Source: Myxococcota bacterium
Lineage (GTDB): Bacteria > Myxococcota_C > UBA6777
Length of the DNA stretch: 64,000 nucleotides
Direction of reading: 5' to 3'
Assembly: GCA_963169055.1 (NCBI GenBank)
Contig: CAUJFU010000170.1
Location: 202-64,201, forward strand
A program made the position numbers and the translations under genes. Positions within the stretch are counted from its first letter, which is position 1. Every line of letters starts with the position of its first letter. The notes under the pieces are model-generated. The model ran no database searches and had not been told where the DNA came from. It was given only the letters and a program-made list of their open reading frames with translations. Of the stretch, positions 30,830 to 46,651 are shown in pieces.

Positions 30830-30840
30830 GGAGACAACTT

Positions 30841-32822: not shown

Positions 32823-33060
32823 GATGTTTCCGTAAAAAACAGAAGGGGGTGTTTGATGTGCAGAGCAGGGATATCCATGCAGACACCGAAGGCATGGCGT
32901 CTGCGTGGCTTTGGCTGCGTCTACAAGAGACGGAAGCAGGGATGTTTGCGCCATCCATGCCCCTCTATATCGTGCTGAGCGAGATCGCGATGACAAAAGG
33001 GGAGGAGAAGGAGAGAGGCATGGAAAGAAGGCGATCGGTTTGAGGCGGCAAAGAGGTCGA

Positions 33061-35232
33061 TCAGCCCGCCACTTTGAAAATGAAGGGGTAGTTGACGTCG
33101 ACAACACCACCACCTTGGGGAACGGGAAACTTCCAGCGGATGATACGGCGCGTGATGCAGTTTTCCACGGCATCGTTGTTCATGGTGGTCGATTTGACGT
33201 TGGCCGTTTCGACAGCGCCTGTTCCTCCGATGCGCCATGCGATCACGACCTTCCCGCCGAGTTTGGGGTTTTTCGTGAGTTCTTTTTCGTAGCAATAACG
33301 GATCTGCGCCCAGTGCATCTGGATAACGCGAGCGATCTGCTCTTTGGTCAGAGCGCCTTTGAGGATCAAGCGGCCCGGTTGGATCTGTGTGATGGTTTTG
33401 CCGCGCCCTTGCCCGCGAAGGTTCATTCCGCCGCGACCGTACACGCGCTTGCGGCCACCGTATCCCCAGCTACCGCCGCCATAACCACCGCCGCCGCCAC
33501 CGCCACCTGCACCAAAGCCACGGCCTGCGCCGCCCATCCCAAAGGATGCACCACCCGCAGAGCCAAGCAGCTTGCCAAGAAACTGTTGATCTTGAGCTTT
33601 CCCAAACAGATCGCCACCGGGACCCATATCGCCCATCCCGCTAGAGAGAAGGCCCAACAGACCCGACTTCTTCACCCGCTGCATGTCTCGTTGTTTTGGA
33701 TCCGCAGGGGCATCTTCTTTCGGGGCTTCTTTGGTCTCGTCCGTCTTCTTGTCTTCTTTGATATCTTCGTCTTTTTTCTCTTCTTTTTTCAGCTCAAACT
33801 TCTTTTCTTGCTTCTTTTTGATCTCGGGTGGTGGAACCACGATCATCTTGGCAAAGCGGCCTTTGAGGACGGTTTCACCGAGCGCCATCGGTCCAAGCGG
33901 AACGAATTGAAACATCAAGATCATCGCTGAGTGAACGATCGCAGAAAAAGCAATCACGCGCCAAAACAGATAGTCGCGGTTGCGGTATGCGTCGCTGTTG
34001 TAAGCCTTGGTGGGGTAAGTGTAAGAGAATTCGATGTTGAGGCTTTGGCCTTCAAGAGCGAAAACCTCGCCCGGAGCCACCGCATACACTTGTCCGTCGA
34101 GTCCATGGACACTTTTGCTGCTAAACTGGCCTTTGAGCGCGTCTGCGGAAACCACCGTCCCATCGGCTTTTGTCAAAACTGGATGGAAGGCGTTGGTAAA
34201 GAACACCCCAAAGCTCCCTTGGAAGGGGATAACGAGGGGATAGTTTTGATCGGGGAACTTTTCATCGGCGAACGAAAAGTCGTTGAGAGGGTGGGTTCCG
34301 ACGGTCACGATGCGGGGGCGATCGAAGTGGCCGACCTCGACGGGGGTTCCGTCCAAAAGAAAGCGCACTTGGAAAAGGCGTTCGCCTTTGCTTTGATCTT
34401 CTTGAACGAGATCTCGGCGGATACTTGGGGGAAGTTGATCGTCTGGAATCGGCGTGGTGTCGATCAGGATCGGGGCTGCAGGTTCTGCGATCAGCGGAGC
34501 GCCATAGTCACTCGCAGGAGGAGCCGCTGCTGCCGATGGGATGCGCATCTCGTCGCGGACAAAATTGGCCATGATCACGCTGCTTGGGGCGGGAGGTAGT
34601 GGTTCGTCTGTGACGGGGAAATCGGGTTCTTGGTCGAGTTCGGCTTCGCCGCCAAAGTCCCCGTCGTTGTCAAAGGGAGAAGATTTGATTCCTGCGAAGG
34701 GATCGGCTTTTTTGTCGAATGCGAAGTCTTCTTCTTCCATCACAGGCGGAAGCAGCAAATCGTCATCTTCGCGCTTGCTTTTGGCCGAAACAGCCTTGCC
34801 AAAGTCAGGCAACGGGCGCTTGACGGTCGGGCCTTCAGCTTCGCCGGGCGCACCGAATACATTGAGGATATCATCGTCGGCATCTGCGATGTTTCCGAAC
34901 ATGGGAGCCGCAACTTCGCCGGGAGGGTTTCCAAACACGCGGATGTACGAGCTTCCGATCTGAACGAGATCGCCGTCTTCGATCTGGGCCTCACCATCGA
35001 TCTTTCTGCCGTTGTGGAGGGTTCCTTCGCTGCTCCATCCAAGATCGCTCAAAAGGATCTCGCCATGTTCGTTGACTTTGAGCATGGCATGGATGCGGGA
35101 GACTTGCGGATCTTCCATGCGCAAGTGCGCTGCGGGGCCGCTCCCGATGATGATGTTTTCTTGGGAATATTTGTTGGTGTCCACCACACTATCCCCATCC
35201 AAGATCTGGATATAAACCGTTTTCTTTTCCAT
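33061..35232 (-). CDS. FHA-domain / single-TM / AgmX-PglI C-terminal-domain protein (GltG/NfsG-like)
   Basis: N-terminal FHA (IIIGSGPAAHLRMEDPQVSRIHAMLKVNEHGEILLSDLGWSSEGTLHNGRKI...GDLVQIG). TM WRVIAFSAIVHSAMILMFQFV, a K/E-rich segment and a Gly-rich segment. The C-terminus IRYCYEKELTKNPKLGGKVVIAWRIGGTGAVETANVKSTTMNNDAVENCITRRIIRWKFPVPQGGGVVDVNYPFIFK fits the TonB_C-like AgmX/PglI C-terminal pattern as I remember it. Confidence 0.85.
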   Translation of the reverse strand: MEKKTVYIQILDGDSVVDTNKYSQENIIIGSGPAAHLRMEDPQVSRIHAMLKVNEHGEILLSDLGWSSEGTLHNGRKIDGEAQIEDGDLVQIGSSYIRVFGNPPGEVAAPMFGNIADADDDILNVFGAPGEAEGPTVKRPLPDFGKAVSAKSKREDDDLLLPPVMEEEDFAFDKKADPFAGIKSSPFDNDGDFGGEAELDQEPDFPVTDEPLPPAPSSVIMANFVRDEMRIPSAAAAPPASDYGAPLIAEPAAPILIDTTPIPDDQLPPSIRRDLVQEDQSKGERLFQVRFLLDGTPVEVGHFDRPRIVTVGTHPLNDFSFADEKFPDQNYPLVIPFQGSFGVFFTNAFHPVLTKADGTVVSADALKGQFSSKSVHGLDGQVYAVAPGEVFALEGQSLNIEFSYTYPTKAYNSDAYRNRDYLFWRVIAFSAIVHSAMILMFQFVPLGPMALGETVLKGRFAKMIVVPPPEIKKKQEKKFELKKEEKKDEDIKEDKKTDETKEAPKEDAPADPKQRDMQRVKKSGLLGLLSSGMGDMGPGGDLFGKAQDQQFLGKLLGSAGGASFGMGGAGRGFGAGGGGGGGGYGGGSWGYGGRKRVYGRGGMNLRGQGRGKTITQIQPGRLILKGALTKEQIARVIQMHWAQIRYCYEKELTKNPKLGGKVVIAWRIGGTGAVETANVKSTTMNNDAVENCITRRIIRWKFPVPQGGGVVDVNYPFIFKVAG

Positions 35233-35358
35233 ATTTGTTCGTCAGCCTCGCGGGGTCAAAAAGATACAAAGAAGGTGTCGCGTTTTGGATAAACGCGGGG
35301 TGTTCGAATCGATTCGAGAAGAGAGGAGAAGTGCAGAGTGGGTCAAGAGGATCGATGG

Positions 35359-35643
35359 TTAGAGCTTGAGAGCGTTTTGCATCAGTTCGGGATTAAAGTC
35401 TTTGCGTGGCTGGATCAAACTGTCGAACTTCACGCGGCTGCGTTGAACCATGTAGCTTCCTTCGGGCTTGATCAATTCACCTTCCACCGCGCTGCCATCG
35501 AAGTCGATCTTCGTGTTCTTTTTGTACATCACGCGATCTTCGCCTTTGATGATCTTGACACGGGTTTGGGCCATCGCTGAACCCGTTGCCATCGCGGACA
35601 TTGCAAAAAACACAGCCATTGCGGTCAACATGCTTTTTTTCAT
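35359..35643 (-). CDS. Small secreted protein (GltF/NfsF-like by size and position)
   Basis: ATG 35643 follows AAGGAG. MKKSMLTAMAVFFAMSAMATGSAMA/Q is a signal peptide, and the mature part is ~68 aa. It occupies the slot between the GltE-like and GltG-like genes. The assignment rests on synteny and size only. Confidence 0.55.
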   Translation of the reverse strand: MKKSMLTAMAVFFAMSAMATGSAMAQTRVKIIKGEDRVMYKKNTKIDFDGSAVEGELIKPEGSYMVQRSRVKFDSLIQPRKDFNPELMQNALKL

Positions 35644-35715
35644 CGGTCGCTCCTTTTTCTCGTTGTATCCGAGTGAATCAACGATTCCCCGAATCCTCTG
35701 TGCATAATCCGGCAA

Positions 35716-35745
35716 AGTGTAAGTCGGTTCTGCCGCCCTTGTCAA
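35716..35745 (-). promoter_or_regulatory. Candidate sigma-70-type promoter for the GltF-like/GltG-like genes
   Basis: The minus strand reads TTGACA-N18-TACACT: a perfect -35 hexamer and a 4/6 match to the -10 hexamer. It lies ~75 nt upstream of the ATG at 35643. Confidence 0.3.
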
Positions 35746-35897
35746 GTCCTGATCGGCTCTTCTCTTCTCTTGCGCTTGGACAACCACTTTCTTGTCGGGT
35801 TCCGATCTTTTTTTCCCTATAGGGGTGACATCGTTTGGTGGTTTTTGTGGGGCGCGACCTCATCCGAAATCCGCCCGTGATATGCACGAAACATGGT

Positions 35898-36006
35898 GGG
35901 GCAGCAAGGCATGATGGCCGCCCAAGAACAGGCACCAAGCCTTTTGCAGAACGGAGTGCGCGCAAGGCAGCAAGGTGTGGCTGCCCAAGAACAGGGCGTC
36001 TACAGC
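35898..36006. repeat. Two tandem copies (one degenerate) of an intergenic palindromic repeat; core GTGGCTGCCCAA-N5-GGGCGTCTAC
   Basis: Copy A reads GGGGCAGCAAGGCATGATGGCCGCCCAAGAACAGGCAC (35898-35935). Copy B reads GGCAGCAAGGTGTGGCTGCCCAAGAACAGGGCGTCTAC, with its core at 35977-36003. Each has a GGCAGC/GCTGCC stem. Both lie in the 430-bp spacer between the GltE-like and GltF-like genes. Confidence 0.6.
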
Positions 36007-36072
36007 AAATCGTTTCAACGTTTCGATCACATCTCTCGGAGATCGTACAAGTCTGACAGAAGAAAAGCGTGA

Positions 36073-37377
36073 TTAAGAGCGAGGGGCAGGGGCAGGAGCG
36101 GTAGGTGCGAGAGTCGTAGGCGCGGGGGTCGTAGGCGCGGGAGTCGTAGGTGCGGGAGTCGTAGGCGCGGGAGTCGTAGGCGCGGGAGTCGTAGGCGCGG
36201 GAGTCGTAGGTGCGGGTTTGGGGGTGGCTTTTTTGGGTTCTTTTTTGGGTTCGGTGCCGATCTTCGAGAGACGGTCTTTGGCTTGTACGATAAACTTGCG
36301 CGCATCTTCGAAGCTTTGGAGCTTTTTGGCGTCAGGATGAGCAAGGAACTTATCGAACAATTTTTCTGAGCTTTTTTGGGTTTCTGTATTCTTGCTGTTG
36401 AAGAGGATGACACCGTGTTGAAAGACGGCTTCGGGATCGTCTGGGCGAAGGGTGAGGATGCGATCATACACTTCTTTGGCTTCGTTCATGCGTTCCATGC
36501 CCATCAAAGCGACGCCGTAGTTGCGGTTGGCGTAGAGATTGTTGGGCTGTTGTTTCAGAACTTTGCTGAAGTGATCGATGGCTGTTTTCCAAGCGCCGTT
36601 TTGGATAGCGATGGTTCCGAGGTTCATGTGCGCTTGGGTGTTCATCGAATCGTGTTTAAGGGCTTCGTGGAACTGCGCTGCTGCACGGGTGAGGTCTTGT
36701 TTCTTCATGTAGACCATCCCGAGGTTGTTGTAAAAGCCGGGGTCTTTTTTGTCGACTTGTTGAAGGGCGATGGTCGCGACAAGTTCGGCTTGGTTGTAGC
36801 GCTCCCATTCGTAGTAAAGCAGAATTAGGTTGCGATAGGCTTGAACATTTTTGTCATCGCGAGAGAGAACAAGTTGGGCTAACTTTTCAGCCTGATCGTA
36901 TTTTTTGGCTTTTCGATACAACATCGCGAGGTTATTTTTGAGTTCAAGATTGTCGGGGTTGTTCTTACTGAAATCTTCAAAGATGGTGAGCGCTTTGTCG
37001 ATCTTGTTTGCGCGGATATAGGCTTGTGCGAGTTCTCCGCGAACTTCTTGGTTGCCGGGGTTTGCGGTGGCGTATTTCTCGTAGTGACCGAGGGCTTCGT
37101 CATGGCGCTCTTGTTTTTCGTAGAGCTTGCCAAGAAACAGAGAGGCTTTGGTCAGGTTGGGGTCTTTGTCGAGGGCTTTTTTGCAAAGTTCCGTTGCCGC
37201 AGTGACGGAAGCAGCGGAATCATCGCCCATTTTGGCTTTGCACTCGATCAGATATTCTTGTGCGCTTTTTTCTTGGACGACCGTCTTGATCGGGTCTTTT
37301 TTGACCTGCGTACCCGTACAAGCGGGTCCGACGGCAAGGGCGGCAGCGCATCCGAGGAAAAGAACAAAGCGTTGCAT
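36073..37377 (-). CDS. TPR-repeat lipoprotein with C-terminal (APTTP)n tail (GltE/AglT/NfsE-like)
   Basis: MQRFVLFLGC lipobox. There are at least 7 canonical TPR units (e.g. ASLFLGKLYEKQERHDEALGHYEKYATANPGN, LKNNLAMLYRKAKKYDQAEKL, FYNNLGMVYMKKQDLTRAAAQFHEALKHD). The tail is K-rich and then APTTP x7. Confidence 0.8.
   Translation of the reverse strand: MQRFVLFLGCAAALAVGPACTGTQVKKDPIKTVVQEKSAQEYLIECKAKMGDDSAASVTAATELCKKALDKDPNLTKASLFLGKLYEKQERHDEALGHYEKYATANPGNQEVRGELAQAYIRANKIDKALTIFEDFSKNNPDNLELKNNLAMLYRKAKKYDQAEKLAQLVLSRDDKNVQAYRNLILLYYEWERYNQAELVATIALQQVDKKDPGFYNNLGMVYMKKQDLTRAAAQFHEALKHDSMNTQAHMNLGTIAIQNGAWKTAIDHFSKVLKQQPNNLYANRNYGVALMGMERMNEAKEVYDRILTLRPDDPEAVFQHGVILFNSKNTETQKSSEKLFDKFLAHPDAKKLQSFEDARKFIVQAKDRLSKIGTEPKKEPKKATPKPAPTTPAPTTPAPTTPAPTTPAPTTPAPTTPAPTTLAPTAPAPAPRS
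36103..36206 (-). repeat. Coding 15-bp tandem repeat x7 encoding (APTTP)7
   Basis: The plus-strand unit GTCGTAGG(C/T)GCGGGA repeats seven times. It translates on the minus strand to APTTPAPTTPAPTTP... at the C-terminus of the GltE-like lipoprotein. Confidence 0.9.
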
Positions 37378-37439
37378 ACAAATCGATCCTTCTTTTTACA
37401 GGTTAGCCCACAGATTCCGAGCCATTCGGCTTGGTGGAT

Positions 37440-40400
37440 TCACATCCCCAACACAGAGTCGCCGTCTTTTTTGGGCTGCTTTGATTCAGCGGCTTTGTCG
37501 GCTTGGGGGGTGGTGTCCTTGGCGTCTTTTCCGTCATTGGCCGGTGCTGCGGGTTTTTTGAGCATATCTGGTGTGGCTTTTTTCGAAAGATCGAGCTTGG
37601 AGAGGGTGGGTTCGATCAACCAGAAGCGGGTTTCGCGTTTGCTGAGGACGGTATAAGGGTTCACTTGGTTAAGTTTGCGTGTGATCTGGTTGCGGCGCAG
37701 TTCGACTTGGCGGGTCCATTCGTTGTAGAGGCCGAGTTCTGCGGCTCTCTTCAACACAGCGGAATACCCTTCGATGGCGGCGTCTTCGTAGCGCAGCGCA
37801 ACGTTTTCGATCTCGCTTTTGTACATCTGTTGGAGGTCGGGAGACAGGTCTTTGGGGACGGGGGCGGCGAAGATCTTTTCCACGAAGATGTGGGTGATCT
37901 CGTTCATGCGAAAGACCGCAGCAAGCGTCCATTTGGCGACGCCGTACCCTGCAACGGCGGAGTAGTCGCCTCGCAGAGCCGTTCCTGTTTTGATGATGTT
38001 TTTGAGAACACCTTTGTCTTTGCGGCTGTTCCCCGTGAATTGGATGGAGATATAAGAGCGTCGTCGTCGTTCTGCCAAGAAGAATCGGGCTTGAGCGAGG
38101 GATTCAAGGGCGGGGCCTTGGCCCATAATGCCCTTGATCTTGTGGCGAACCATCTGATCACCGAGCGCAACGACGATCATGTAGCGTTTTTCAGTTTCGG
38201 CGTTGTTTCCGAGTTTTTCGTTGGCGGCGGCGATGTGCGCGTGTGCGTACAACAAGAGATCGTTTTCCACCAAGTCGTTCTTCAGCGTGTTCAGGGTTTT
38301 CAAGACGGCGGGTGCCCCCTTGGCATCGAGATCCCGCTCAAAGCGCCGAACTGCGGTCGTTAAGAACGTGGAGACTTTGGCGTCTTGATACTTGGCGAGG
38401 TACACTTCAAAGGCTTCGATGGCGGCTTTCCATGCTTTGTTGTCTTCGTGGACGGTGGCGATGGCAAGGTAAAGTTTCGCGACTTCCTTGTCATCGGGGA
38501 AACGGCGGATGAAGTCCTTGTAAAGGATGATAGCGCGCTCGCTTTGTTGGAGGCCGCGACGATACAGGGCTGCGCTGTAGATAGCGCGATTTTGTTGGGC
38601 GAGCTTTTTCTTTTCGGTGTCTTCAGAGGATTCTTTGGCAACAACTTTGCCTTTTTTTCCTCTCTTTTTGGCGACTTTCTTTTTAACGACTTTTTTCTTT
38701 TTGCCTTTTTTCGGCGCGGCACCGTTTTCTTCGGCACTCTCAAGAATCTTCATCACGTCTTTGTCGCCGTACACATATTTTTCATACCACGACGCGGACT
38801 TGTCGTAGTTGGCGATCTGCTCGTAGTGACCGCCGAGTTCGAACTTGATCTGATCAACGAAATTGGTTTCGGGATAGCGGCTCACCATCAGTTCGCGGTA
38901 CTTGATGGCATCGAGGATGCGCTTGGAGTTGTTGAAGTTGTTTCCTGCGATGGCAAGGGCGTTTGGGGCGCGAGGGCTCATCACAAAGCTTTTCTTGGTG
39001 ACCCAAGGGCCTGTTTTCCCAAATTCATCTTCGTATTTGACGAGTTGTTCGGCGGTTTTGAGTGCGCCGAGCGTTTTTTGTTCAACGAAGATGCGCTGCC
39101 ATGCGGAGCGGATCACCATCTGGTACATCTCTTCTTTGAACTTGGCGTTTTTGGTGAGTTGTGGATCTTCGATGAAGATGCGTGCGTTTTGCTCCAATTG
39201 AGGCCAGTCTTGGAGGTCTTCGTAAGAATAGAGGATCATAAACGCCGCACGACGGCTGAGTTCGTGGGTGGGGAACTCTTTTGCCATCATGGAAAAGATG
39301 TTCATCGACTTACGGTAATGCTTGTAAGAATAGTAGATCGCGCCTGTCTTAAAGAAGCTTTGTAAGCGTTCTTCTTTGTCGGACTCTTTTTTGGGATCAA
39401 GGATGGTCAAATAACGCTCGTAGGCTTTCATTAAGCGTTGATCCCATTCTTTGATCGTGAGGCGAGTCCATGTGATCTTGCCGTCTTTGTCTTTGGTTAG
39501 ACCCTGAAGTTTTTTTCCGGCCCCTTTTAACTCGACGCTACCGGTACGTCCAGCAAGTGCTTCATAACAGAGGATCTCGGAGAAGGCCGCTTGTTTTTTA
39601 AACTGCCCTTGGATCTGGGTGCTGCGTTGGACCGTTTGGTCGTATTGGTAAGCAGCACGGGCGTAAACCTTGCGGGCATCTTCGGGAGGATTGTTCTTGC
39701 GGGTTTTGGGAGTGAGTTGTTGAGCTTTGCGGTAGAGCAGTTCAGCAAGGTAAAAGCGCAATTCATAAGCACTTTCCGAACTAGGATAATATTCTAGATA
39801 TTTTCCATAAAGTTGGATCGCAAAGTCGTAATAAAGTTCTTGGCGCTTGAGATTCTCTTTTTCTTTTTGGGCGTCTTGGTGGTAGCGCGTCGAGTATTCG
39901 AGCAGCGTTTGTTCTGCGGATTCGTTGGCTTCCTGCCAAACTTTCTTATCGCCGTTCCATCGTTTGTGCCAAGGGTTTTTATCATCAAAGTAAGCCATGA
40001 GGTTTTCAACTTCTTTGAAGATCTCTTGGGGTTTGGCGATTTTGGCGATGGAGCGGAGGACTTCGTTTTGGAAGAGAGGTGCTTCGGGGCCGAAGTTGTC
40101 GGGTTCGCCTTGGGGATTCATGGTCATCAAGAGCTTGTAGGTCTTGATGGAGAGGGGATAGTTGCCTTGGTTGTAGTAGCGACCCGCGAGGCGGCGTGTG
40201 GCTTTGTAGGCGTACACGGGCCCCATGATGGATTTGAAGTAATTGTAAGCGTCGTCCGAAACATCCAAACGTGCGAACACAAGGACAAGATCGCGCAAGG
40301 CTTCGTCGCGCAGGATCACTTTGCTTTCTTTGGTTTTGGCGTAGCGGATGGAGAGTTTGATCACGTGTTTGAATTGTTGGAGGGCTTTTTCGTACTCGCC

Positions 40401-41348
40401 GACGTTGAATTGACACCAGCCGATCATGTACATTGAACGAAGGTTGATGCCGCGCAAGTTGGCCTTGTCATCGAGAGAAAGATTGGGATCTTTGGCGCGT
40501 TCTGCGGTGATACGAAGGGCGGATTGGTAATTTTCGAGAGCGAGCTGGACTTTGTTTTTGGTGTTGTTGAAATAGTAGTCTGCAAGAGCCGTATAAGCAT
40601 CTGGAACATAACGACTATTTGGGTAATCTTTTAACAACCGAGTGAACATGGTGAGAGCTTCTTGCTTTTTGTCCATGTCCATGAAGTTGAAGCCGAGGTT
40701 GTAGACGACTTCGTCGGCGCGCTCGTATTTGGGGTAGAGTTGAAGCAGTTTTTTGTAGACGTTGACAGCGTTGGTGCGGTACACGTCGGCTTTGGAGAGT
40801 TCAGCTTTGGGAGCGGGAGGGCAGTTTTGGTTGTTGCGTTTGCGACAATCTTGGTCCCACTCTTCCATTTTTTTGTTGTGTTCTTCCATGGACAAGAATC
40901 GGAGATATTTGGATTCTTCCCAGTATTCTTCGGCCAATTGGTAGCGCAACTGTGCGTTGCGGGCGGGATCTTCTTCGTTGGGGATGAGGGTTTTGTAGGT
41001 GTTAATCTTTTGTTGGCGGATCTCGGCTTTGGCTTTGTCGGCAAAGACGCCAGCGGTGAGTCCTTTGATCTTTGCGGGGCGCTGGACTTGTTTTTTGGCT
41101 TCTTCTGCGCGGCGGCGCTCTTCTTCAAGTTCGCGTTGGGTTTTTTTGCGTTTGAGGTCGATCAGCAGCTTATCTTTTTGCTTGCGCTGAAGCTTGAGTT
41201 TTTGAAACGAGCCTTCCCGCTTGCCTTTTCGTTCAAAGTCTTTTTGGTCGTAGTTTTGCGCGGAAGCAAGGCCCAAAGAGAGTGCCCAGAGGGCGGCACA
41301 TCCAAGGCCGAGCAGCCACGCATACAACGAGTTATTTTGGCGGATCAT
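37440..41348 (-). CDS. Very large secreted TPR/coiled-coil protein (GltD/AgmU/NfsD-like)
   Basis: 1302 aa. Signal LYAWLLGLGCAALWALSLGLASA, a K/E/R coiled-coil segment, and TPR-like repeats throughout (e.g. ADEVVYNLGFNFMDMDKKQEALTMFTRLLKDYPNSRYVPDAYTALADYYF). An internal KKGKKKKVVKKKVAKKRGKKGK patch. The start overlaps the upstream stop (ATGA at 41345-41348). Confidence 0.85.
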   Translation of the reverse strand: MIRQNNSLYAWLLGLGCAALWALSLGLASAQNYDQKDFERKGKREGSFQKLKLQRKQKDKLLIDLKRKKTQRELEEERRRAEEAKKQVQRPAKIKGLTAGVFADKAKAEIRQQKINTYKTLIPNEEDPARNAQLRYQLAEEYWEESKYLRFLSMEEHNKKMEEWDQDCRKRNNQNCPPAPKAELSKADVYRTNAVNVYKKLLQLYPKYERADEVVYNLGFNFMDMDKKQEALTMFTRLLKDYPNSRYVPDAYTALADYYFNNTKNKVQLALENYQSALRITAERAKDPNLSLDDKANLRGINLRSMYMIGWCQFNVGEYEKALQQFKHVIKLSIRYAKTKESKVILRDEALRDLVLVFARLDVSDDAYNYFKSIMGPVYAYKATRRLAGRYYNQGNYPLSIKTYKLLMTMNPQGEPDNFGPEAPLFQNEVLRSIAKIAKPQEIFKEVENLMAYFDDKNPWHKRWNGDKKVWQEANESAEQTLLEYSTRYHQDAQKEKENLKRQELYYDFAIQLYGKYLEYYPSSESAYELRFYLAELLYRKAQQLTPKTRKNNPPEDARKVYARAAYQYDQTVQRSTQIQGQFKKQAAFSEILCYEALAGRTGSVELKGAGKKLQGLTKDKDGKITWTRLTIKEWDQRLMKAYERYLTILDPKKESDKEERLQSFFKTGAIYYSYKHYRKSMNIFSMMAKEFPTHELSRRAAFMILYSYEDLQDWPQLEQNARIFIEDPQLTKNAKFKEEMYQMVIRSAWQRIFVEQKTLGALKTAEQLVKYEDEFGKTGPWVTKKSFVMSPRAPNALAIAGNNFNNSKRILDAIKYRELMVSRYPETNFVDQIKFELGGHYEQIANYDKSASWYEKYVYGDKDVMKILESAEENGAAPKKGKKKKVVKKKVAKKRGKKGKVVAKESSEDTEKKKLAQQNRAIYSAALYRRGLQQSERAIILYKDFIRRFPDDKEVAKLYLAIATVHEDNKAWKAAIEAFEVYLAKYQDAKVSTFLTTAVRRFERDLDAKGAPAVLKTLNTLKNDLVENDLLLYAHAHIAAANEKLGNNAETEKRYMIVVALGDQMVRHKIKGIMGQGPALESLAQARFFLAERRRRSYISIQFTGNSRKDKGVLKNIIKTGTALRGDYSAVAGYGVAKWTLAAVFRMNEITHIFVEKIFAAPVPKDLSPDLQQMYKSEIENVALRYEDAAIEGYSAVLKRAAELGLYNEWTRQVELRRNQITRKLNQVNPYTVLSKRETRFWLIEPTLSKLDLSKKATPDMLKKPAAPANDGKDAKDTTPQADKAAESKQPKKDGDSVLGM

Positions 41349-43174
41349 CGCTTACATTCTCCCTGAATAAATTGACGGTAGTGGGCCACTTCATCGAGCC
41401 AGAACTCGCCTTGGTAGGGCCAAAAGATATGGCTTTGTTCTGTGATCAAGGTGTAGCGGTATTCGTCTTGTTCGATACCGCCGCCTTGTGCGTAGCGATC
41501 GAGTTCTTGCTTTTGTTTTTGCAAGGTTTCGAGCTTGATGACTTGGGCCTGATTGACTTGTTTGGTGACATCCTTGCGGATGGACTCGAGGGCTGCGTGG
41601 ATGCTGAGGCCCGCTCGACGTTTGAGGGCTTCGCGGGTTTTGAGGGCCGTTTCAAGCAAGGCACGTCCGAGGTTTGAGGTCTTCCATGCGGAGCCGCGAG
41701 TGCGGATGATCTCGATCTCAGCGTCGGTTTTGTCCATGAGGCTTTGGTAGTTGCGCAGCGATTTGTCTTGTTCAACAAGTGCAATGAGAGAGGGGAGAAG
41801 ATCCGTGGTTTTGCCTTCTTTGAGCAGCGTTTGTTGGCTTCGGAAGTACTCGTAGTATTGGGCGATCCAGTTCTCCTTGGTGCGTCGGGCAACCAATGCT
41901 TTGAGTTTGTCTTGGAGCGGTTTAAAGAACGCTTCAAAGCGTGCGATGGATTGTTTGGTTTCTTCGTATTTGCAGTTTTGGAAGTAGATCAGCGATTGGA
42001 GGATCTGGAGTTCGGGGAAGAAGCTGATCTGATAAAAGGCCGATTGGAGGCCCAAGATGCGGCCCAGCGAGAAGTGGTAGTACTTGAGCATGTAAAACAC
42101 CCAAGACGTTTCAAAGAGGACTTCTCCTTTGGTCAGGCCGCGTTGCTTGGGGACTTTGCGGTATTCCCGAAGGGAGGCGACAAGGTGTTCTTGGCCTTTG
42201 GGGTTGTCGAGGTTAAAAACACCGAGTGCGTAATAAGAGCGGGCGATACCGAGTTGTGCGAATTCTTTGATTTGAAGGAGTTCTTGGCGTAGTGCTTTAT
42301 CTTCGGGCTTGTCGCCTGTGGGCAGGGGGAGATCGATGATGCGCTGGAAATATTCGATGGCGCCGTCGTTGTATCCGACCTGAGCGTTGCGTGTGCCCAT
42401 GAGATAAAGGGCTTTTGCAAAGTAGTTGAAGGGAGCGCGTTTGCGGACTTGGCTTAGCAGCACGATGGGCATGTAGACGTATTCGGTGTTGGTGCGGCCA
42501 AAGACGAAGTAGTAGCGGCCCATGAGGTAGGAGAAGGAATCCTTAAAATCATCAATGCGTTTGTGCCAGCGTTGGGTGAGGTCGGGATTGCGTTTGACGC
42601 TCGCAGGAACGGGGAAAAGATAGGGTATGGGGTCGGTCAATGCGGGGATTTCGATTTTTTTGCTTGTGCGTGTCAATCGAAGAGCGCGGATGTTTGGGGG
42701 GATCCGTCGAAGGATCTGGATCAGCCCGAGGCGTCCGAGGATCAAGGTTTCATCGCCTGTCGCGGAGGCTGTTTGGATCATGCGATCGAGTGCAAGCAGG
42801 AAGTTGCCGTCAGGGCGTCGTTTTTTGGGGTCAGCGATATCGAGGGTTTGGGTCTCGCGCAAGACGTCATTGAAATACCCTGAGGAGACGATACCGAGCT
42901 GCATCCGAAAGAGAGCGCGTGCGAGCAACAGACGGGCAGCGCGTTGAAATTTGGGGAGGGCGGTACCGTTTTCGATGATATCGAAGAAGTCGACGGAAGC
43001 GCCCTCGAAGTCGTTGCTTTTGTACTTGACGCGGGCGCGGCTAAAGAGGCTTCGGATCTCGCGTTCGGTCATCATGGCTTGTGCAGCCACAGGTTCAACA
43101 TACAAACAAGAGGTGAGAAGGACGGCAGCAAGCGCCAGCATCCACCTCGACATACGTCTGGTTTTTTGCAACAT
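41345..43174 (-). CDS. Secreted TPR-like protein (GltC/NfsC-like)
   Basis: 609 aa. AGGAG RBS, signal MSRWMLALAAVLLTSCLYVEPVAAQA, then helical repeats. It lies directly between the barrel gene and the GltD-like gene. The assignment rests mainly on position and architecture. Confidence 0.7.
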   Translation of the reverse strand: MLQKTRRMSRWMLALAAVLLTSCLYVEPVAAQAMMTEREIRSLFSRARVKYKSNDFEGASVDFFDIIENGTALPKFQRAARLLLARALFRMQLGIVSSGYFNDVLRETQTLDIADPKKRRPDGNFLLALDRMIQTASATGDETLILGRLGLIQILRRIPPNIRALRLTRTSKKIEIPALTDPIPYLFPVPASVKRNPDLTQRWHKRIDDFKDSFSYLMGRYYFVFGRTNTEYVYMPIVLLSQVRKRAPFNYFAKALYLMGTRNAQVGYNDGAIEYFQRIIDLPLPTGDKPEDKALRQELLQIKEFAQLGIARSYYALGVFNLDNPKGQEHLVASLREYRKVPKQRGLTKGEVLFETSWVFYMLKYYHFSLGRILGLQSAFYQISFFPELQILQSLIYFQNCKYEETKQSIARFEAFFKPLQDKLKALVARRTKENWIAQYYEYFRSQQTLLKEGKTTDLLPSLIALVEQDKSLRNYQSLMDKTDAEIEIIRTRGSAWKTSNLGRALLETALKTREALKRRAGLSIHAALESIRKDVTKQVNQAQVIKLETLQKQKQELDRYAQGGGIEQDEYRYTLITEQSHIFWPYQGEFWLDEVAHYRQFIQGECKR

Positions 43175-43193
43175 GCGTCACTCCTGCCAAGGT

Positions 43194-43907
43194 TTAAAAG
43201 AAGAAGCTAAAGCCGAGATTGAGTGCCATATCGACACGAAACAAGTCTTGTTTTCGGCTTTCAAAGTGATCCGGCATAAACAGCACACGAAACTCCCATC
43301 GGAAGGCGAGAAAGCGCAGCAAAAAGTAGCGTTGTCCGAGGCCGACGCCGCCAAAGGGGGCAAAGCCGGGGCTGCCTTTGGCCCCTTTTTCGGTCAACAC
43401 GTTTTCGGCTGCGGGTAGATCGCTAGGCGGGGGGAAGGTCAAAAAGACGCCACCAAGGACGGTAAAGAAGATATCGTAATGGATGATCGCTTGGCTAAAG
43501 AGGTTGAATTTCCCGTAAAACGGGGCGAATCGAAACTCGGCACCGACGGTTGAGAAGAGGAAGGGGCGGCGAACATCGGGTTTGACGCGGAAGGTTCCGG
43601 CGTCGTTTTGGAGTTGGTTCGTGAGTCCGGTGGGGACGTCAAAGCTGCCTGTGGCGAGGAGGCCAAGCGCAAACCATTCGTTGATATGATACATGTAGCC
43701 GAGGTTGACGTTATAGACTTGATAGAAAGGATCGTTGGTGACGAGACCAAGGCTGAGGTTGAGTTCTTGTTTTTGGGTCTTGGTGTAGAGGCGCTTTTTG
43801 AGGGCGTCGTCACCGGGGCGAAAGCGATCAGATGGACTGTCTGCGTGAGATGTGCGGGGGAGGCAGAGGAAGCCGAGAACAACAAGCACAAGCGTGAACT
43901 TTTTCAT
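43194..43907 (-). CDS. Outer-membrane beta-barrel protein (GltA/GltB/NfsA/NfsB-like)
   Basis: Signal MKKFTLVLVVLGFLCLPRTSHA. The pattern of alternating hydrophobic residues is typical of amphipathic beta strands (LNLSLGLVT, YNVNLGYMYHI, FALGLLATGSF, FRFAPFYGKFNLF). It ends LNLGFSFFF, a C-terminal aromatic OMP signature. Confidence 0.7.
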   Translation of the reverse strand: MKKFTLVLVVLGFLCLPRTSHADSPSDRFRPGDDALKKRLYTKTQKQELNLSLGLVTNDPFYQVYNVNLGYMYHINEWFALGLLATGSFDVPTGLTNQLQNDAGTFRVKPDVRRPFLFSTVGAEFRFAPFYGKFNLFSQAIIHYDIFFTVLGGVFLTFPPPSDLPAAENVLTEKGAKGSPGFAPFGGVGLGQRYFLLRFLAFRWEFRVLFMPDHFESRKQDLFRVDMALNLGFSFFF

Positions 43908-44209
43908 GACTGAACCTTATAGCGTAAGGGTCCGAGAGCATCGTGCATTCGCGTCAATCTCGCGGTCAAGGATTGCGTGTCGAACAATGAAGACTTGCGA
44001 GCAAAAAGTCAGGAGACAAAACAAGCCGTAGTGAGGTCATCAAGAACCCCGAAAGAGGGGCCACACGCGAAGTCGAGAGTGTCTAGCACAATTCGACAGG
44101 CATTTCAAGAAGCAGCGTGCGGTTTTGTGTGCCAACGCGGCGATGTCCTTTCGGGCAAGGGTGAGAGCCACGCACCCCATTAGGGGGAATGAAGACGATA
44201 GACAAGACG

Positions 44210-44968
44210 TCATGGGGTGTTTGGGTTAAAGGTGAGGGCCAAACGGGCAGCCATCTTGTCGGCGGAACCTTGTTCGATGGTATAGCTGATTTCTTCGGAA
44301 GAAGCGATCTGGTTTTGCCCTGCGTCAAGGGCGCGGGCAAAGACGTTACGGTTGTTTGCGAAAGGGACGTTGGTCAAGATCGCGAACTTGGGCTTAGGCT
44401 GTCCATCGATCAGTCGGACGAAGAGATTTTCTTCTTTGGCGTCGTTGAGGGCTTTGAGTACAAATTGCAAGCGTTTGGCGGCTTCGGGGATATCGTTTGT
44501 GAAGCGGATGATCAGGGTTCCGGTGGTTACGCCTTGTCGGCGACCGAGAGAGAGCGTGACAGCGCTTTGGATGTCGTCGCCTGATTTTTCGACTCGAAAG
44601 GCTGGGGTGCTGCCGTTTGACACGGAGCGACCGCTGGAATCGTACGTTACGATCGTGAGTTTGCGTTCGCCGCCGTAGGGGATTTGTTTGAGGGGGATGG
44701 GTGGGATCTGACACTTCCCTGTTTGGGAATTCCAAAACAGGTCGGTGGGTTGAAAGCCTTCGGTGAACTTGGCGTTAACGATCTCTTCTTGTTGTTCGGT
44801 GAGTTTTTCGACAGTAAATTCCATCTGATAGACGCCAACACATGGAAGGTCGGCTTTTTCTTCGACGCGGATCACAAACCGTTCGATATAAGAGCAACTG
44901 CCGAGTTGGGTGAGGGCCAAAACAAACAACAAAACAGAAGACAAAGAGGGAGCAGCGAAGCGTTTCAT
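44210..44968 (-). CDS. Lipoprotein of unknown function (occupies the GltK-like position)
   Basis: ATG 44968 gives MKRFAAPSLSSVLLFVLALTQLGSC with a good lipobox (LGSC). The mature part is ~230 aa and beta-rich. No recognisable motif. Confidence 0.6.
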   Translation of the reverse strand: MKRFAAPSLSSVLLFVLALTQLGSCSYIERFVIRVEEKADLPCVGVYQMEFTVEKLTEQQEEIVNAKFTEGFQPTDLFWNSQTGKCQIPPIPLKQIPYGGERKLTIVTYDSSGRSVSNGSTPAFRVEKSGDDIQSAVTLSLGRRQGVTTGTLIIRFTNDIPEAAKRLQFVLKALNDAKEENLFVRLIDGQPKPKFAILTNVPFANNRNVFARALDAGQNQIASSEEISYTIEQGSADKMAARLALTFNPNTP

Positions 44969-45088: not shown

Positions 45089-46651
45089 TTATTGGGTGCC
45101 GGAAGCGGTGGTGGTCACAATAAAAGTCGCATTCGGTGGTGCGCTGTTTTGCGCGATAAGGACGCCAGCGGTGACGGCTCCTGCGCCGACGACGGCGACG
45201 ACGATGATGGTCCAAAACCACCATTTTTGTGCGATGGATTCGCCCTTGGGTTCGGGCTTTTGGGGTTTTTCGGTAATACGTTTTTCGGGTTCGCTGCGTG
45301 GTTCGATGGCAGCGACGCGGCGTTCGGGTTCAGGATCGGGTTCGGTGCGTCGTTCGGGTTCGGTGCGCCGTTCGGGTTCGGTGTGTCGTTCGGGTTCACG
45401 TCGAGCGATAGGTTCGGCGCGTCGTTCGGGTTCGGGTTCGCGTCGGATAACGGGGGGTGGGTCAGGGCGGCGGACGGGTTCAGCAACGGGAGAGAGTTGC
45501 TGCTCGAGTTGTTGGGCGTATGCGACGATGGCGCTGCGATGCTCATCCCGAGACAGGCCGATGGTGAGTTTGTGGTAAGTGATATTTTTGGCGTCTTTTT
45601 GGTATTTGGCGATGTAGAGCAGGATGACGCTACCGCCATCCGTTTTGGAAAAACGTCTGGGTTCAAGCATATAGAGGTGATCTGCGCCAAGTTTGTCGCG
45701 GATCGACTCAAGGCGATCAAGGACGAGGGGATCGACGGCAGCGGCTTTGTCGAAGATGGGGATACCGTCGAGGGAAAGGGCTTTGGGATCGCGTTCGAGG
45801 GAGACGTTGTTTTTGAGGCTGGTGCGGCTGCCGAGCTTTTTTTTGTCAAAGTTGGCGATACTTTTCCACATCTTGTAGCCGTTGTATTCGATGCGAAAGA
45901 GGTGACGGCCAAGAGGGATCTCGCGGATGGTGACGGGAGTTTTCCCGACAAGGCGTTGATTGTAGTACACTTTTGCGTTGTTGGGGGTGGAGTCAAGAGA
46001 AAGTGAGTAGTTGGCGCTGCGTTTGACCCAGTCACGGATTGTGTTGAAATATTTTACGAATTGCTCGGGATATTTGCCTTCGTCTGGCTGATATTCGGGG
46101 TTGAATTGAGCTGCTCGGATCACATATTCCCGTGTTTTTGGGCCATTGCGCATCTGGAGGTAGGCAAGGCCGTGGAGCAAGTAAAGTTCGGTGAAGAGGT
46201 TGGGATCGGTGATCCAATCTTCGATGTGGGGGGCAAGTTTGTTGGCTTTTTCGAGGGCTTTGAGGGCAAAGCCGGCGTAGCGGGGTTGATTGAAGGAGCA
46301 GAGCTTTTGGCCTTTTTCGAGATAACGGCGGAAGTATGTAATGCGGATCTCTGTTTTTCGGTCGATGGTTTGGACATTATTGAGGCGGTTGGTGAGATCA
46401 GCTTCTTCCATGACGTCGAGACGGGGGCGTTGTCGGAGCGCCCAACGATAGAGGCGTTGGATCCATTCGGCCTCGGTGCTGTCGAGGTTTGTGTTGGATT
46501 TGTAGGGAATGATCGCGATCTTGGGCTTGGTGTTTGCGTGGGAGTTGGAGATCCAAGTCAAAGGGAGAAAAAAGAGCAGGGGTAAAACTGCGCAGCGAAA
46601 GAAGGTGCGTTGTGGTGGTGGGGGAAGTGTGGAGGCAAACCGTGGGACCAT
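45089..46651 (-). CDS. Secreted KIAIIPY / TPR-like / PEGA protein with (EPERR)n linker and C-terminal TM anchor
   Basis: ATG 46651 follows AGGAG, so I prefer it to the TTG at 46708. Signal CAVLPLLFFLPLTWISNSHA, then KPKIAIIPYKSN. PEGA: SLDSTPNNAKVYYNQRLVGKTPVTIREIPLGRHLFRIEYNGY. Repeats EPERRAEPIARREPERHTEPERRTEPERRTEP. TM WWFWTIIVVAVVGAGAVTAGVLIA. Confidence 0.75.
   Translation of the reverse strand: MVPRFASTLPPPPQRTFFRCAVLPLLFFLPLTWISNSHANTKPKIAIIPYKSNTNLDSTEAEWIQRLYRWALRQRPRLDVMEEADLTNRLNNVQTIDRKTEIRITYFRRYLEKGQKLCSFNQPRYAGFALKALEKANKLAPHIEDWITDPNLFTELYLLHGLAYLQMRNGPKTREYVIRAAQFNPEYQPDEGKYPEQFVKYFNTIRDWVKRSANYSLSLDSTPNNAKVYYNQRLVGKTPVTIREIPLGRHLFRIEYNGYKMWKSIANFDKKKLGSRTSLKNNVSLERDPKALSLDGIPIFDKAAAVDPLVLDRLESIRDKLGADHLYMLEPRRFSKTDGGSVILLYIAKYQKDAKNITYHKLTIGLSRDEHRSAIVAYAQQLEQQLSPVAEPVRRPDPPPVIRREPEPERRAEPIARREPERHTEPERRTEPERRTEPDPEPERRVAAIEPRSEPEKRITEKPQKPEPKGESIAQKWWFWTIIVVAVVGAGAVTAGVLIAQNSAPPNATFIVTTTASGTQ
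45318..45445 (-). repeat. Coding 18-bp-type tandem repeat encoding (EPERR/TEPERR)n
   Basis: The plus-strand unit CGTTCGGGTTCGGTGCG is iterated. It encodes REPEPERRAEPIARREPERHTEPERRTEPERRTEPDPEPERR. Confidence 0.8.

What the first reader, a model, noticed from the sequence alone, without database searches (positions are those of the whole stretch)
33061..44968. Compact, single-locus Glt/Nfs-type trans-envelope machine
Seven consecutive minus-strand genes run in this order:
- lipoprotein (252 aa)
- OM beta-barrel ending ...FSFFF (237 aa)
- secreted TPR protein (609 aa)
- giant secreted TPR/coiled-coil protein (1302 aa)
- TPR lipoprotein (434 aa)
- 94-aa secreted protein
- FHA / TM / Gly-rich / AgmX-PglI C-terminal protein (723 aa)

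This order and these architectures mirror NfsA/B-C-D-E-F-G of Myxococcus xanthus. They also mirror GltK/B/A/C plus GltD-E-F-G, which in M. xanthus are split over two loci. Two junctions are tightly packed: ATGA at 41345-41348, and a 19-nt gap at 43175-43193.

It differs from the models in four ways:
- only one barrel gene
- no TolQ/TolR/ExbBD-like (AglRQS) motor gene in the window
- no GltJ-type (zinc-ribbon/GYF) partner
- no recognisable GltH/GltI

It could be a minimal or ancestral variant, or a functionally different relative of the gliding and spore-coat machines.
Basis: partly seen in the sequence, partly recalled or inferred. Interest (0 to 1): 0.75.

Follow-up and report, generated by a model that had tools for sequence, protein, structure and literature searches.

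The report
Glt/Nfs-type envelope machine gene cluster
This is a real, intact gene cluster for a cell-envelope-spanning complex of the family that powers gliding and spore-coat assembly in Myxococcus, found here in an uncultured myxobacterial lineage; single-locus versions without the motor or the cytoplasmic parts are already described, so it is a new member of a known kind.

Summary
Seven intact minus-strand genes lie at the stated coordinates, and both tight junctions are confirmed. Six products are homologues of Glt/Nfs parts by curated NCBIfam models:
- an OM barrel (TIGR04565, above cutoff)
- GltC (E 5e-59)
- GltE (1e-36)
- GltF/CglF (3e-17)
- GltG (7e-84), whose AgmX/PglI C-terminal domain scores above cutoff and which also carries an FHA domain
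- the 1302-aa TPR protein, for which no NCBIfam model matched. It matches the gltD-position protein of collinear clusters, including a Nannocystis punicea cluster that carries a GltI-sized giant gene.

The 252-aa lipoprotein shows no demonstrable link to GltK. It is specific to this lineage and predicted as two beta-sandwiches.

The 64-kb window has no motor, GltH, GltI, GltJ or second barrel. The source is an uncultured Myxococcota lineage. The locus is conserved in relatives (about 48-98% identity) and is under purifying selection (dN/dS 0.05-0.13).

Single-locus, motor-less clusters lacking I/J/K are already published: nfsA-H, G4/G5, the Bdellovibrio sets and Anaeromyxobacter. The most likely mechanism is a periplasm-spanning transducer that docks through GltG on a TolQR-like AglRQS motor encoded elsewhere. 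Whether the output is gliding or polymer handling is open. Verdict: new member of a known kind, moderate-to-low interest.

The parts
44210..44968 (-). 252-aa outer-membrane lipoprotein candidate (signal peptide ending LGS-C). Predicted as two beta-sandwich domains. Specific to this lineage. It sits where gltK/cglC or a second barrel would be, but homology to either is not shown.
   Evidence: ORF. No Pfam or NCBIfam hit. Only 6 homologues in 5.8e9 proteins, all in relatives' loci. AF2 pLDDT 68.5, all-beta. Foldseek returns only generic tandem Ig/FN3/pilin-adhesin folds, TM about 0.25. dN/dS 0.06.
43194..43907 (-). 237-aa outer-membrane beta-barrel of the GltA/GltB/NfsA/NfsB-type family. It is the only one in the window.
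   Evidence: TIGR04565 OMP_myx_plus at 79.5 bits (cutoff 60). The same model hits the barrels of Glt-like loci L008 and L009. Collinear tblastn hits. No second copy in the window. C-terminal ...FSFFF.
41345..43174 (-). 609-aa GltC/NfsC homologue, a periplasmic protein associated with the OM module. It starts 19 nt after the barrel gene and overlaps the gltD-like start by 4 nt.
   Evidence: NF033756 gliding_GltC, E 5e-59, 200.6 bits (equivalog cutoff 450). Junctions. Collinear hits to L008, L009 and L015.
37440..41348 (-). 1302-aa secreted TPR/helical protein, the GltD/NfsD-position scaffold.
   Evidence: TPR/YbgF-type hits only; no NCBIfam model matched it as GltD, even at E<=10. Homologues include Haliangium ochraceum, Nannocystis punicea, Bdellovibrionota and Chitinispirillaceae proteins. 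The Nannocystis homologue P0052 lies between gltC-, gltE-, gltF- and gltG-like genes and upstream of a 4053-aa giant. tblastn E-values: 4.6e-35 to L015, 2.7e-92 to L009, 5.8e-54 to L008.
36073..37377 (-). 434-aa TPR protein, a GltE/NfsE homologue, with a C-terminal Pro/Thr-rich tandem-repeat tail.
   Evidence: NF033758 gliding_GltE, E 1.2e-36, 126.5 bits (cutoff 225), the top hit among many TPR models. 15-nt repeat x7.7 at 36101-36216.
35359..35643 (-). 94-aa secreted protein, a GltF (CglF) homologue.
   Evidence: NF033764 gliding_CglF, E 3.3e-17, 62.3 bits (cutoff 90). CglF = GltF (PMC4488436). Collinear hits in L008, L009 and L015.
33061..35232 (-). 723-aa GltG/NfsG homologue. Domain order: N-terminal FHA, disordered linker, second FHA-like beta domain, one TM helix (about 419-444), about 180-aa disordered Lys/Glu- and Gly-rich linker, TonB-C-like AgmX/PglI domain.
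   Evidence: NF033760 gliding_GltG, E 7e-84, 282.6 bits (cutoff 650). NF033768 at 116 bits (cutoff 40). Pfam FHA 2.4e-12. AF2 domain map. Foldseek FHA TM 0.85-0.89. TM segment. Same three-domain plan as M. xanthus GltG (PMC11761067).
32406..32825 (-). 139-aa small secreted protein (signal peptide plus about 100 aa) directly downstream of the gltG-like gene, at the position held by gltH/nfsH in other clusters. It is not a GltH homologue, and whether it belongs to the system is uncertain.
   Evidence: The mature part is conserved in L002. Called as a 138-aa gene in L007. No Pfam or NCBIfam hit. L008 and L009 instead carry CglE/GltH (NF033755 above cutoff) at this position.

Best explanation
The locus encodes the envelope 'transducer' half of an Agl-Glt/Nfs-family machine in an uncultured Myxococcota bacterium.

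Inferred working, by analogy with M. xanthus:
- The GltG-like protein sits in the inner membrane. Its TM helix and membrane-proximal FHA-like domain dock on a TolQ/TolR-type proton channel (AglR5-AglQ-AglS type) encoded elsewhere in the genome.
- Its long disordered Gly-rich linker crosses the periplasm.
- Its TonB-C-like end binds the large GltD-like TPR scaffold. That scaffold also holds the GltE-, GltF- and GltC-like proteins.
- The GltC-like protein couples the scaffold to an OM module. Here that module is one GltA/B-type barrel plus a lineage-specific two-beta-sandwich lipoprotein.
- Proton-motive force would then move or tension a surface-exposed cargo.

No GltI, GltJ or GltH is present. 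In gene content the machine therefore resembles the Nfs, G4/G5 or Bdellovibrio-type paralogues more than the focal-adhesion gliding machine of M. xanthus.

Shown here: homology, gene order, domain architecture, conservation and selection. Inferred: the motor partnership, the protein contacts and the output.
For: - NCBIfam and Pfam assignments for barrel, GltC, GltE, GltF and GltG, including the above-cutoff AgmX/PglI domain.
- GltD-position homology to Glt clusters of Nannocystis punicea (L015), L009 and L008, with collinear C-D-E-F-G hits.
- The AF2 model of the GltG-like protein reproduces the FHA / FHA-like / TMH / disordered / TonB-CTD plan described for M. xanthus GltG (PMC11761067).
- Translational coupling of barrel-C-D.
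- Locus conserved in at least five relatives at about 48-98% identity.
- dN/dS 0.05-0.13.
- Motor encoded apart from the transducer genes is the norm. M. xanthus aglRQS serves both Glt and Nfs from a separate locus, and AglR binds both GltG and NfsG (PMC3169522; PMC3858216).
- A related GltG-like gene is followed directly by MotA_ExbB + ExbD + ExbD in L012.
Against: - No motor gene in 64 kb, and its presence elsewhere in the genome could not be checked.
- All Glt model scores are below NCBI's equivalog cutoffs. A Nannocystis cluster with a GltI-sized gene scores no better, so this does not discriminate.
- No direct comparison with M. xanthus GltD/NfsD sequences was possible.
- The OM module departs from the models: one barrel, no GltH, and an unrelated lipoprotein.
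- The N-terminal FHA lacks the canonical phosphothreonine-binding Arg and Asn (GS and SSEGT in place of GR and STNGT). Its cytoplasmic partner is unknown.
Confidence: 0.75

Rival explanations
1. It is this organism's bona fide adventurous-gliding (Agl-Glt) machine. GltI/GltJ-type cytoplasmic parts, an adhesin and the aglRQS motor would be encoded elsewhere, and the output would be surface motility.
For: - All periplasmic and IM core parts are present.
- Bdellovibrio glides with sets that lack GltH, I, J and K (PMC3169522). That paper suggests any bacterium with AglRQS plus GltA-G is a potential glider.
- The N-terminal FHA of GltG is retained. In the M. xanthus model it binds GltI.
- Model scores are similar to those of a Nannocystis cluster with a GltI-sized gene.
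- An orphan GltG paralogue with the same TonB-C-like domain exists in relatives' genomes. It could play a GltJ-like second-anchor role.
Against: - In the G1-type clusters seen here (L015, L016) the giant GltI-like gene follows gltG within one or two genes. Here the next genes are a 139-aa secreted protein and then convergent envelope genes.
- No GltH, GltK, GltJ, CglB-like VWA, MglA or AglZ hit among the window's long ORFs, each scanned with Pfam or NCBIfam.
- In the rough NJ tree the GltG-like protein lies outside the clade holding true GltG equivalogs.
Confidence: 0.3
2. It is an Nfs-like or G4/G5-like paralogue that handles a surface polymer (spore coat, capsule or slime) rather than driving motility.
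For: - The single-locus order barrel-C-D-E-F-G matches nfsA-H. Like Nfs, it lacks GltI and GltJ (and shows no GltK homologue) (PMC3169522; PMC3858216).
- Nfs works without MreB or a cytoplasmic platform.
Against: - NfsH/GltH and the second barrel are missing.
- No Wza/Wzy/exo-type polysaccharide export genes were seen among the window's ORFs.
- Sporulation in this lineage is unknown.
- Nfs is a recent Glt duplicate within Cystobacterineae according to Luciano 2011, so orthology to Nfs itself is unlikely.
Confidence: 0.35
3. The seven genes are one part of a larger lineage-specific envelope system. That system would also include the flanking membrane Ser/Thr kinase, three PEGA-domain paralogues, a TolB-like beta-propeller and two TPR-TM paralogues, with the kinase controlling the machine through GltG's FHA domain.
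For: The block queA-sigma-STK-PEGA(-PEGA)-lipoprotein-barrel-C-D-E-F-G, followed by convergent PEGA-like, TolB-like and TPR genes, is kept in L002, L003, L007, L010 and L011 at about 48-82% identity. The flanking products carry signal peptides or TM segments. A TolB (AglW) was reported in pull-downs with GltD/E/I/J (PMC3169522).
Against: - Housekeeping genes (queA, a sigma factor, an opp-type ABC transporter) are conserved in the same block. The synteny may simply reflect relatedness.
- More distant Glt-like loci (L008, L009, L015) have no PEGA or TolB-like neighbours.
- The FHA lacks two canonical pThr-binding residues.
- Kinases are very common in Myxococcota.
Confidence: 0.15

Closest known systems
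Myxococcus xanthus Nfs system (nfsA-H, G3 cluster)
   Same: A single locus with the same order (barrel(s)-C-D-E-F-G). No GltI or GltJ, and no demonstrable GltK. Motor encoded elsewhere. The GltG-type protein has FHA, TM and a TonB-C-like end (PMC3169522; PMC3858216).
   Different: Here there is one barrel instead of NfsA+NfsB, and no NfsH/GltH-type (CglE) barrel. An unrelated 252-aa lipoprotein lies upstream and a 139-aa secreted protein downstream. The lineage is distant, and orthology to Nfs was not tested and is unlikely.
Myxococcus xanthus Agl-Glt gliding machine (gltD-J + gltK/B/A/C + aglRQS)
   Same: Homologues of GltB/A, C, D, E, F and G. The GltG three-domain plan is the same. The periplasmic TPR scaffold is the same size class: 1302 aa against 1191 aa.
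   Different: No GltH, I, J or K homologue or motor in the window. The G1 and G2 parts are fused into one locus. All scores are below equivalog cutoffs. The FHA lacks the canonical pThr residues.
Bdellovibrio 'expanded core' sets (e.g. Bd0828-0838) and similar loci L008/L009
   Same: Compact clusters with barrel(s), C, D, E, F and G and without GltI/J/K. L008 also has a single barrel. No motor lies next to L008 or L009 (PMC3169522).
   Different: L008 and L009 keep a CglE/GltH barrel after gltG. Luciano 2011 ties Bd0828-0838 to the agl genes closest to aglRQS. Protein identity to the window is only 21-41%.
Core complex GltC-D-E-G + AglRQS of Gammaproteobacteria, Geobacter and Fibrobacter
   Same: The same four Glt core proteins. 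The 1302-aa protein even finds a Chitinispirillaceae homologue.
   Different: Core complexes keep the motor in the same operon and lack GltF and the barrels. The window has GltF and a barrel but no motor.
Tol-Pal / TonB-ExbBD systems
   Same: The general logic is shared: an IM-anchored protein with a long periplasmic linker and a TonB-C-like domain, energised by a MotA/TolQ/ExbB-type channel, plus YbgF/CpoB-like TPR hits in the 1302-aa protein.
   Different: No TolQ, TolR, TolA or Pal here. The neighbouring propeller protein matches only the beta-propeller part of TolB, at 122.8 bits against a cutoff of 343.

Membership tests
Agl-Glt/Nfs family of envelope transducer clusters (Luciano 2011 'expanded core') | GltG-type protein: cytoplasmic FHA, one TM helix, periplasmic linker, AgmX/PglI (TonB-C-like) C-terminal domain | tested here: met
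   NF033760 E 7e-84. NF033768 116 bits (cutoff 40). FHA 2.4e-12. TM segment. AF2 domain map.
Agl-Glt/Nfs family of envelope transducer clusters (Luciano 2011 'expanded core') | GltC, GltE and GltF homologues encoded with it | tested here: met
   NF033756 5e-59, NF033758 1.2e-36, NF033764 3.3e-17, each the best or only specific hit.
Agl-Glt/Nfs family of envelope transducer clusters (Luciano 2011 'expanded core') | GltD-type secreted TPR scaffold of more than 1000 aa between gltC and gltE | tested here: met
   Homologous to gltD-position proteins of L015 (Nannocystis punicea, P0052, E 3e-27; tblastn 4.6e-35), L009 (2.7e-92) and L008 (5.8e-54). Not compared directly with M. xanthus GltD/NfsD, because no sequence or model was available.
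Agl-Glt/Nfs family of envelope transducer clusters (Luciano 2011 'expanded core') | GltA/GltB-type OM beta-barrel(s) | tested here: met
   One barrel, TIGR04565 79.5 bits against cutoff 60. The same model hits the barrels of L008 and L009. The usual pair is reduced to one.
Agl-Glt/Nfs family of envelope transducer clusters (Luciano 2011 'expanded core') | Partner AglR/AglQ/AglS (TolQ/TolR-like) proton motor in the genome | not testable with these tools
   Absent from the 64-kb window and from all fetched relatives' loci.
M. xanthus-type gliding machine proper (Agl-Glt, equivalog level) | Scores at or above NCBIfam equivalog cutoffs for GltC, GltE, CglF and GltG | tested here: not met
   200.6/450, 126.5/225, 62.3/90 and 282.6/650. 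True equivalogs score 692-792. Caveat: a Nannocystis cluster with a GltI-sized gene also fails (233, 87, 57, 363).
M. xanthus-type gliding machine proper (Agl-Glt, equivalog level) | GltI (giant cytoplasmic TPR protein) and GltJ (ZnR-GYF-TM-TonB-C) present | tested here: not met
   No such ORF in the window. The GltJ model hits only the shared C-terminal domain of the GltG-like protein (36.8 bits against 450). L015 and L016 show the giant gene close downstream of gltG. Elsewhere in the genome was not testable.
M. xanthus-type gliding machine proper (Agl-Glt, equivalog level) | GltH (CglE) barrel and GltK (CglC) lipoprotein | tested here: not met
   No NF033755 hit for any window protein scanned, and no tblastn hit with the L008/L009 GltH. 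The 252-aa lipoprotein has no family hit at E<=10 and only a generic fold.
Nfs spore-coat machine | nfsA-H gene set in one locus (two barrels, C, D, E, F, G, H) | tested here: inconclusive
   The order and C-G content match. The second barrel and H are missing. No Nfs-specific model or sequence was available.
Nfs spore-coat machine | Functional link to Exo polysaccharide export and sporulation | not testable with these tools
   No exo-type genes among the window ORFs scanned. The biology of the lineage is unknown.
Tol-Pal system | tolQ-tolR-tolA-tolB-pal gene set | tested here: not met
   No MotA_ExbB, ExbD or Pal hits. The neighbouring propeller protein scores 122.8 against 343 for TolB and lacks the N-terminal TolB domain.

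The most novel reading that the evidence does not exclude
This lineage may have rebuilt the outer end of the machine. The changes are a single barrel, a lineage-restricted two-beta-sandwich (adhesin-like) lipoprotein in place of GltA/B/K, and a small secreted protein in place of GltH. In addition, relatives' genomes carry an orphan, N-terminally truncated GltG paralogue that could supply the second TonB-C-like anchor that GltJ supplies in Myxococcus. Together with the conserved PEGA, TolB-like and TPR-TM neighbours, this would define a third functional class of Agl-type surface transporter, with its own cargo.
Probability: 0.15. Interest if true: 0.55.

Novelty: new member of a known kind. Interest (0 to 1): 0.3.

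Why it matters
The locus adds a deep-branching, uncultured Myxococcota lineage (MAGs labelled Myxococcota, Myxococcales or Deltaproteobacteria) to the set of Agl-Glt/Nfs-type machines. It also shows a trimmed outer-membrane module: one barrel, no GltH, and a new lipoprotein. That is useful comparative material for two questions: which parts are indispensable for force transmission across the envelope, and how the OM end is swapped between functions. It does not open a new class, because compact, motor-less, I/J/K-less clusters were described in 2011-2013.

Tried and rejected
- **Looking for a GltD model.** The NCBIfam scan of the 1302-aa protein at E<=10 gave only YbgF/BamD TPR hits. GltD identity therefore rests on synteny and homologues.
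- **Testing GltK identity of the lipoprotein.** No family hit. The shallow-MSA AF2 model (pLDDT 68.5) and the Foldseek PDB search gave only generic tandem beta-sandwich matches.
- **PDB sequence search with the GltG-like protein.** Only FHA domains were found.
- **Genome-contig scan with the GltG alignment.** The rest of the MAG could not then be searched for aglRQS.
- **Extending the window.** Exact look-up of the edge gene 264-2183 found nothing on record. Haliangium P0045 was not on record either.
- **Getting a true GltD.** The contig carrying true GltG equivalog P0143 holds no gltD.
- **Naming representatives.** Cluster look-ups returned almost no names, so Nfs and G4/G5 clades could not be labelled. 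The NJ tree is unbootstrapped and midpoint-rooted and is only indicative.
- **Promoter and terminator scan.** Not above shuffled expectation.
- **Rfam.** No hits in the window.
- **Reading the 32406-33173 ORF as a 255-aa protein.** Rejected. Only the last 139 aa (signal peptide plus mature part) are conserved.
- **Pathak & Wall 2012.** Not held. The name equivalences were taken from PMC9946355 and PMC4488436 instead.

Full report
**Observation.**
The seven minus-strand ORFs are present at the stated coordinates. Two of them, the 252-aa lipoprotein and the 94-aa protein, start at internal ATGs of longer mechanical ORFs. The chosen starts give clean signal peptides, and gene calls in relatives have the same lengths. 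The 19-nt barrel-gltC gap contains GGAG, and the ATGA overlap of gltC and gltD was read directly. The other gaps are 62 nt (D-E), 429 nt (E-F), 126 nt (F-G) and 302 nt (lipoprotein-barrel). Only barrel-C-D(-E) is therefore tightly coupled. The promoter/terminator scan was not above chance.

**Identity of the parts.**
Curated NCBIfam models gave specific hits:
- 237 aa: TIGR04565, a Myxococcota-type OM barrel. Score 79.5 against a cutoff of 60.
- 609 aa: GltC (5e-59).
- 434 aa: GltE (1.2e-36, the top hit among many TPR models).
- 94 aa: CglF (3.3e-17). CglF is GltF (PMC4488436).
- 723 aa: GltG (7e-84), plus the AgmX/PglI C-terminal domain at 116 bits against a cutoff of 40.

Pfam adds an FHA domain in the 723-aa protein.

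The AF2 model of the 723-aa protein has these segments:
- FHA at 1-105. Foldseek TM is 0.85-0.89 to solved FHA domains.
- A disordered stretch at 106-283.
- A second all-beta, FHA-like domain at 286-405.
- A TM helix at 419-443.
- A disordered Lys/Glu- and Gly-rich stretch at 444-626.
- A confident alpha/beta domain at 630-720.

This is the plan described for M. xanthus GltG by Cambillau & Mignot 2025 (PMC11761067).

No NCBIfam model matched the 1302-aa protein as GltD. Its homologues include proteins of Haliangium, Nannocystis, Bdellovibrionota and a Chitinispirillaceae (Fibrobacterota) MAG. That spread mirrors the published taxonomic range of GltD. In Nannocystis punicea the homologue P0052 lies in gltC-[P0052]-gltE-gltF-gltG-TPR-4053-aa giant, which is a G1-type cluster with a GltI-sized gene. 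The window's C, D, E, F and G proteins hit that locus collinearly, with E-values of 4e-17, 5e-35, 2e-21, 7e-10 and 3e-25. The same collinearity holds for two other Glt-like loci, L008 and L009. NCBIfam confirms those loci as barrel(s)-GltC-D-E-F-G-CglE(GltH).

**What is not there.**
- No MotA_ExbB or ExbD hit appears in any long ORF of the window. AglR/Q/S-like proteins taken from a related GltG-motor locus (L012) find nothing by tblastn in the window or in relatives' loci.
- There is no second barrel and no GltH (CglE).
- There is no GltI-sized ORF.
- The GltJ model touches only the C-terminal domain it shares with the GltG-like protein.
- The 252-aa lipoprotein cannot be equated with GltK/CglC. 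It has no family hit even at E<=10. It has six homologues in 5.8 billion proteins, all from this lineage's loci. Its predicted fold is two beta-sandwiches that match only generic pilin, adhesin and FN3 folds.

**Source and conservation.**
- The closest record is a Myxococcota MAG at 98% identity (JAKLKB01; L001).
- An 82%-identical 'Myxococcales bacterium' MAG (GCA_020633035.1, L007) carries the same locus.
- Relatives at about 48% identity (L002, L003, L010, L011) carry it too.
- The same wider neighbourhood is kept in these loci: queA, sigma factor, membrane Ser/Thr kinase, PEGA protein(s), the cluster, then convergent PEGA-like, TolB-like propeller, TPR-TM and an opp-type ABC transporter.
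- dN/dS against L007 is 0.05-0.13 for all seven genes. dS is near saturation, so these ratios are approximate.

**Placement.**
- A full HMMER search with the GltG profile found 2294 50%-identity clusters at E<=1e-30. This is a large family.
- The window's lineage stands apart: 1196 and 769 bits for its own representatives, then 471 bits for the next.
- True GltG equivalogs (P0143 at 792 bits, P0086 at 692 bits) were identified among the hits. Other full-length members score 330-407, and the window's protein scores 282.6.
- In a rough NJ tree, the nearest relatives of the window's lineage are about 460-aa paralogues that lack the N-terminal FHA. The next group out contains the L009 protein. The true GltG equivalogs lie one clade further out.
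- Two of the short paralogues are orphans. One is in the same MAG as L007; the other comes from the same sample as L010. Neither sits near any glt or motor gene.
- The equivalog cutoffs do not separate gliding clusters from others. The Nannocystis cluster with a GltI-sized gene also scores below them.

**Mechanism.**
By homology with the M. xanthus system, the products should form the envelope-spanning transducer:
- The GltG-like protein docks in the inner membrane on a TolQR-like AglRQS channel.
- It reaches across the periplasm with its disordered linker.
- It clamps its TonB-C-like domain onto the GltD-like scaffold, which also holds the GltE-, GltF- and GltC-like proteins.
- The GltC-like protein links the scaffold to the OM barrel.

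The motor being elsewhere is normal. M. xanthus aglRQS is unlinked and serves both Glt and Nfs.

The absence of GltI, J and H and the single-locus order make the gene content closest to Nfs, G4/G5 and the Bdellovibrio sets. Whether the output is gliding or handling of a surface polymer cannot be decided from sequence. The N-terminal FHA lacks the canonical Arg and Asn of the phosphothreonine pocket. That weakens the appealing idea that the neighbouring kinase controls it.

**Novelty.**
Luciano et al. 2011 and Wartel et al. 2013 already describe the following:
- the single-locus nfsA-H cluster lacking I, J and K;
- further paralogous clusters (G4, G5) of unknown function;
- four Bdellovibrio sets lacking H, I, J and K;
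- fused G1+G2 clusters in Anaeromyxobacter;
- an unlinked, shared motor.

The window adds a member from an uncultured lineage with a trimmed and partly replaced OM module. That is a new member of a known kind, of modest interest.

Noticed in passing
window 32406-32825 (-): A 139-aa secreted protein (signal peptide plus about 100 aa, with Cys near both ends) lies directly after the gltG-like gene. It is conserved in relatives and has no family hit. It occupies the slot where other clusters have GltH/CglE.
   Followed up: partly
window 45089-46708 (-), 46698-47840 (-), 30826-32409 (+): Three paralogous PEGA-domain envelope proteins flank the cluster on both sides. The third has only a weak PEGA hit (E 0.014). 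The first two overlap by 11 nt and follow a membrane-anchored Ser/Thr kinase (48062-49861). The arrangement is conserved in relatives.
   Followed up: partly
window 27686-28612 (+), 28741-29826 (+), 29726-30829 (+): Two paralogous proteins (signal peptide, TPR-like region, Cys-rich region, C-terminal TM helix) bracket a TolB-like PD40 beta-propeller. That propeller lacks the TolB N-terminal domain (122.8 bits against a cutoff of 343). L002 has only one copy of the TPR-TM gene.
   Followed up: partly
L013 10001-11386 (GCA_020633035.1) and L014 10001-11395: Relatives' genomes (or, for L014, the same sample as relative L010) carry an orphan paralogue of the GltG-like protein. It is 461-464 aa and 37-45% identical over residues 274-723. 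It has the FHA-like domain, TM helix and AgmX/PglI end but no N-terminal FHA, and it lies far from any glt or motor gene. It might act as a GltJ-like second anchor.
   Followed up: partly
L012 469-4455 (Logan SRR26831663): A more distant GltG-like gene (28% identity) is followed directly by MotA_ExbB (222 aa) and two ExbD genes (159 and 190 aa). This is a GltG-AglRQS arrangement.
   Followed up: partly
window 36101-36216 and 45336-45435: There are two in-frame tandem repeats. A 15-nt unit x7.7 encodes the PAPTT tail of the GltE-like protein; the L007 orthologue is 36 aa shorter. An 18-nt unit x5.6 encodes the EPERRT-like repeats of the 539-aa PEGA protein.
   Followed up: no
window 34918-35232 (-), residues 1-105 of the GltG-like protein: The N-terminal FHA has GS in place of the canonical GR, and SSEGT in place of STNGT. 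Two usual phosphothreonine-contact residues are therefore missing. The substitutions are conserved across the lineage alignment A1.
   Followed up: partly
window 52238-53857 (-): A 539-aa protein carries four Stig1-type Cys-rich repeats (Pfam PF04885, E 8e-41). This family is named after plant stigma proteins.
   Followed up: no
window 1-64000: GC skew follows gene orientation, with the coding strand C-rich. Values are about -0.1 to -0.2 over the plus-strand genes at 16-32 kb and +0.1 to +0.3 over the minus-strand genes from 34 kb on. The sign change near 33-34 kb coincides with the convergent gene boundary.
   Followed up: no
L004 (JAPKGU010000096, labelled Phycisphaerales MAG): A contig end 98% identical to the first 218 residues of the GltG-like protein sits in a MAG labelled Phycisphaerales. 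This is probably a binning error, since all other relatives are labelled Myxococcota or Deltaproteobacteria.
   Followed up: no
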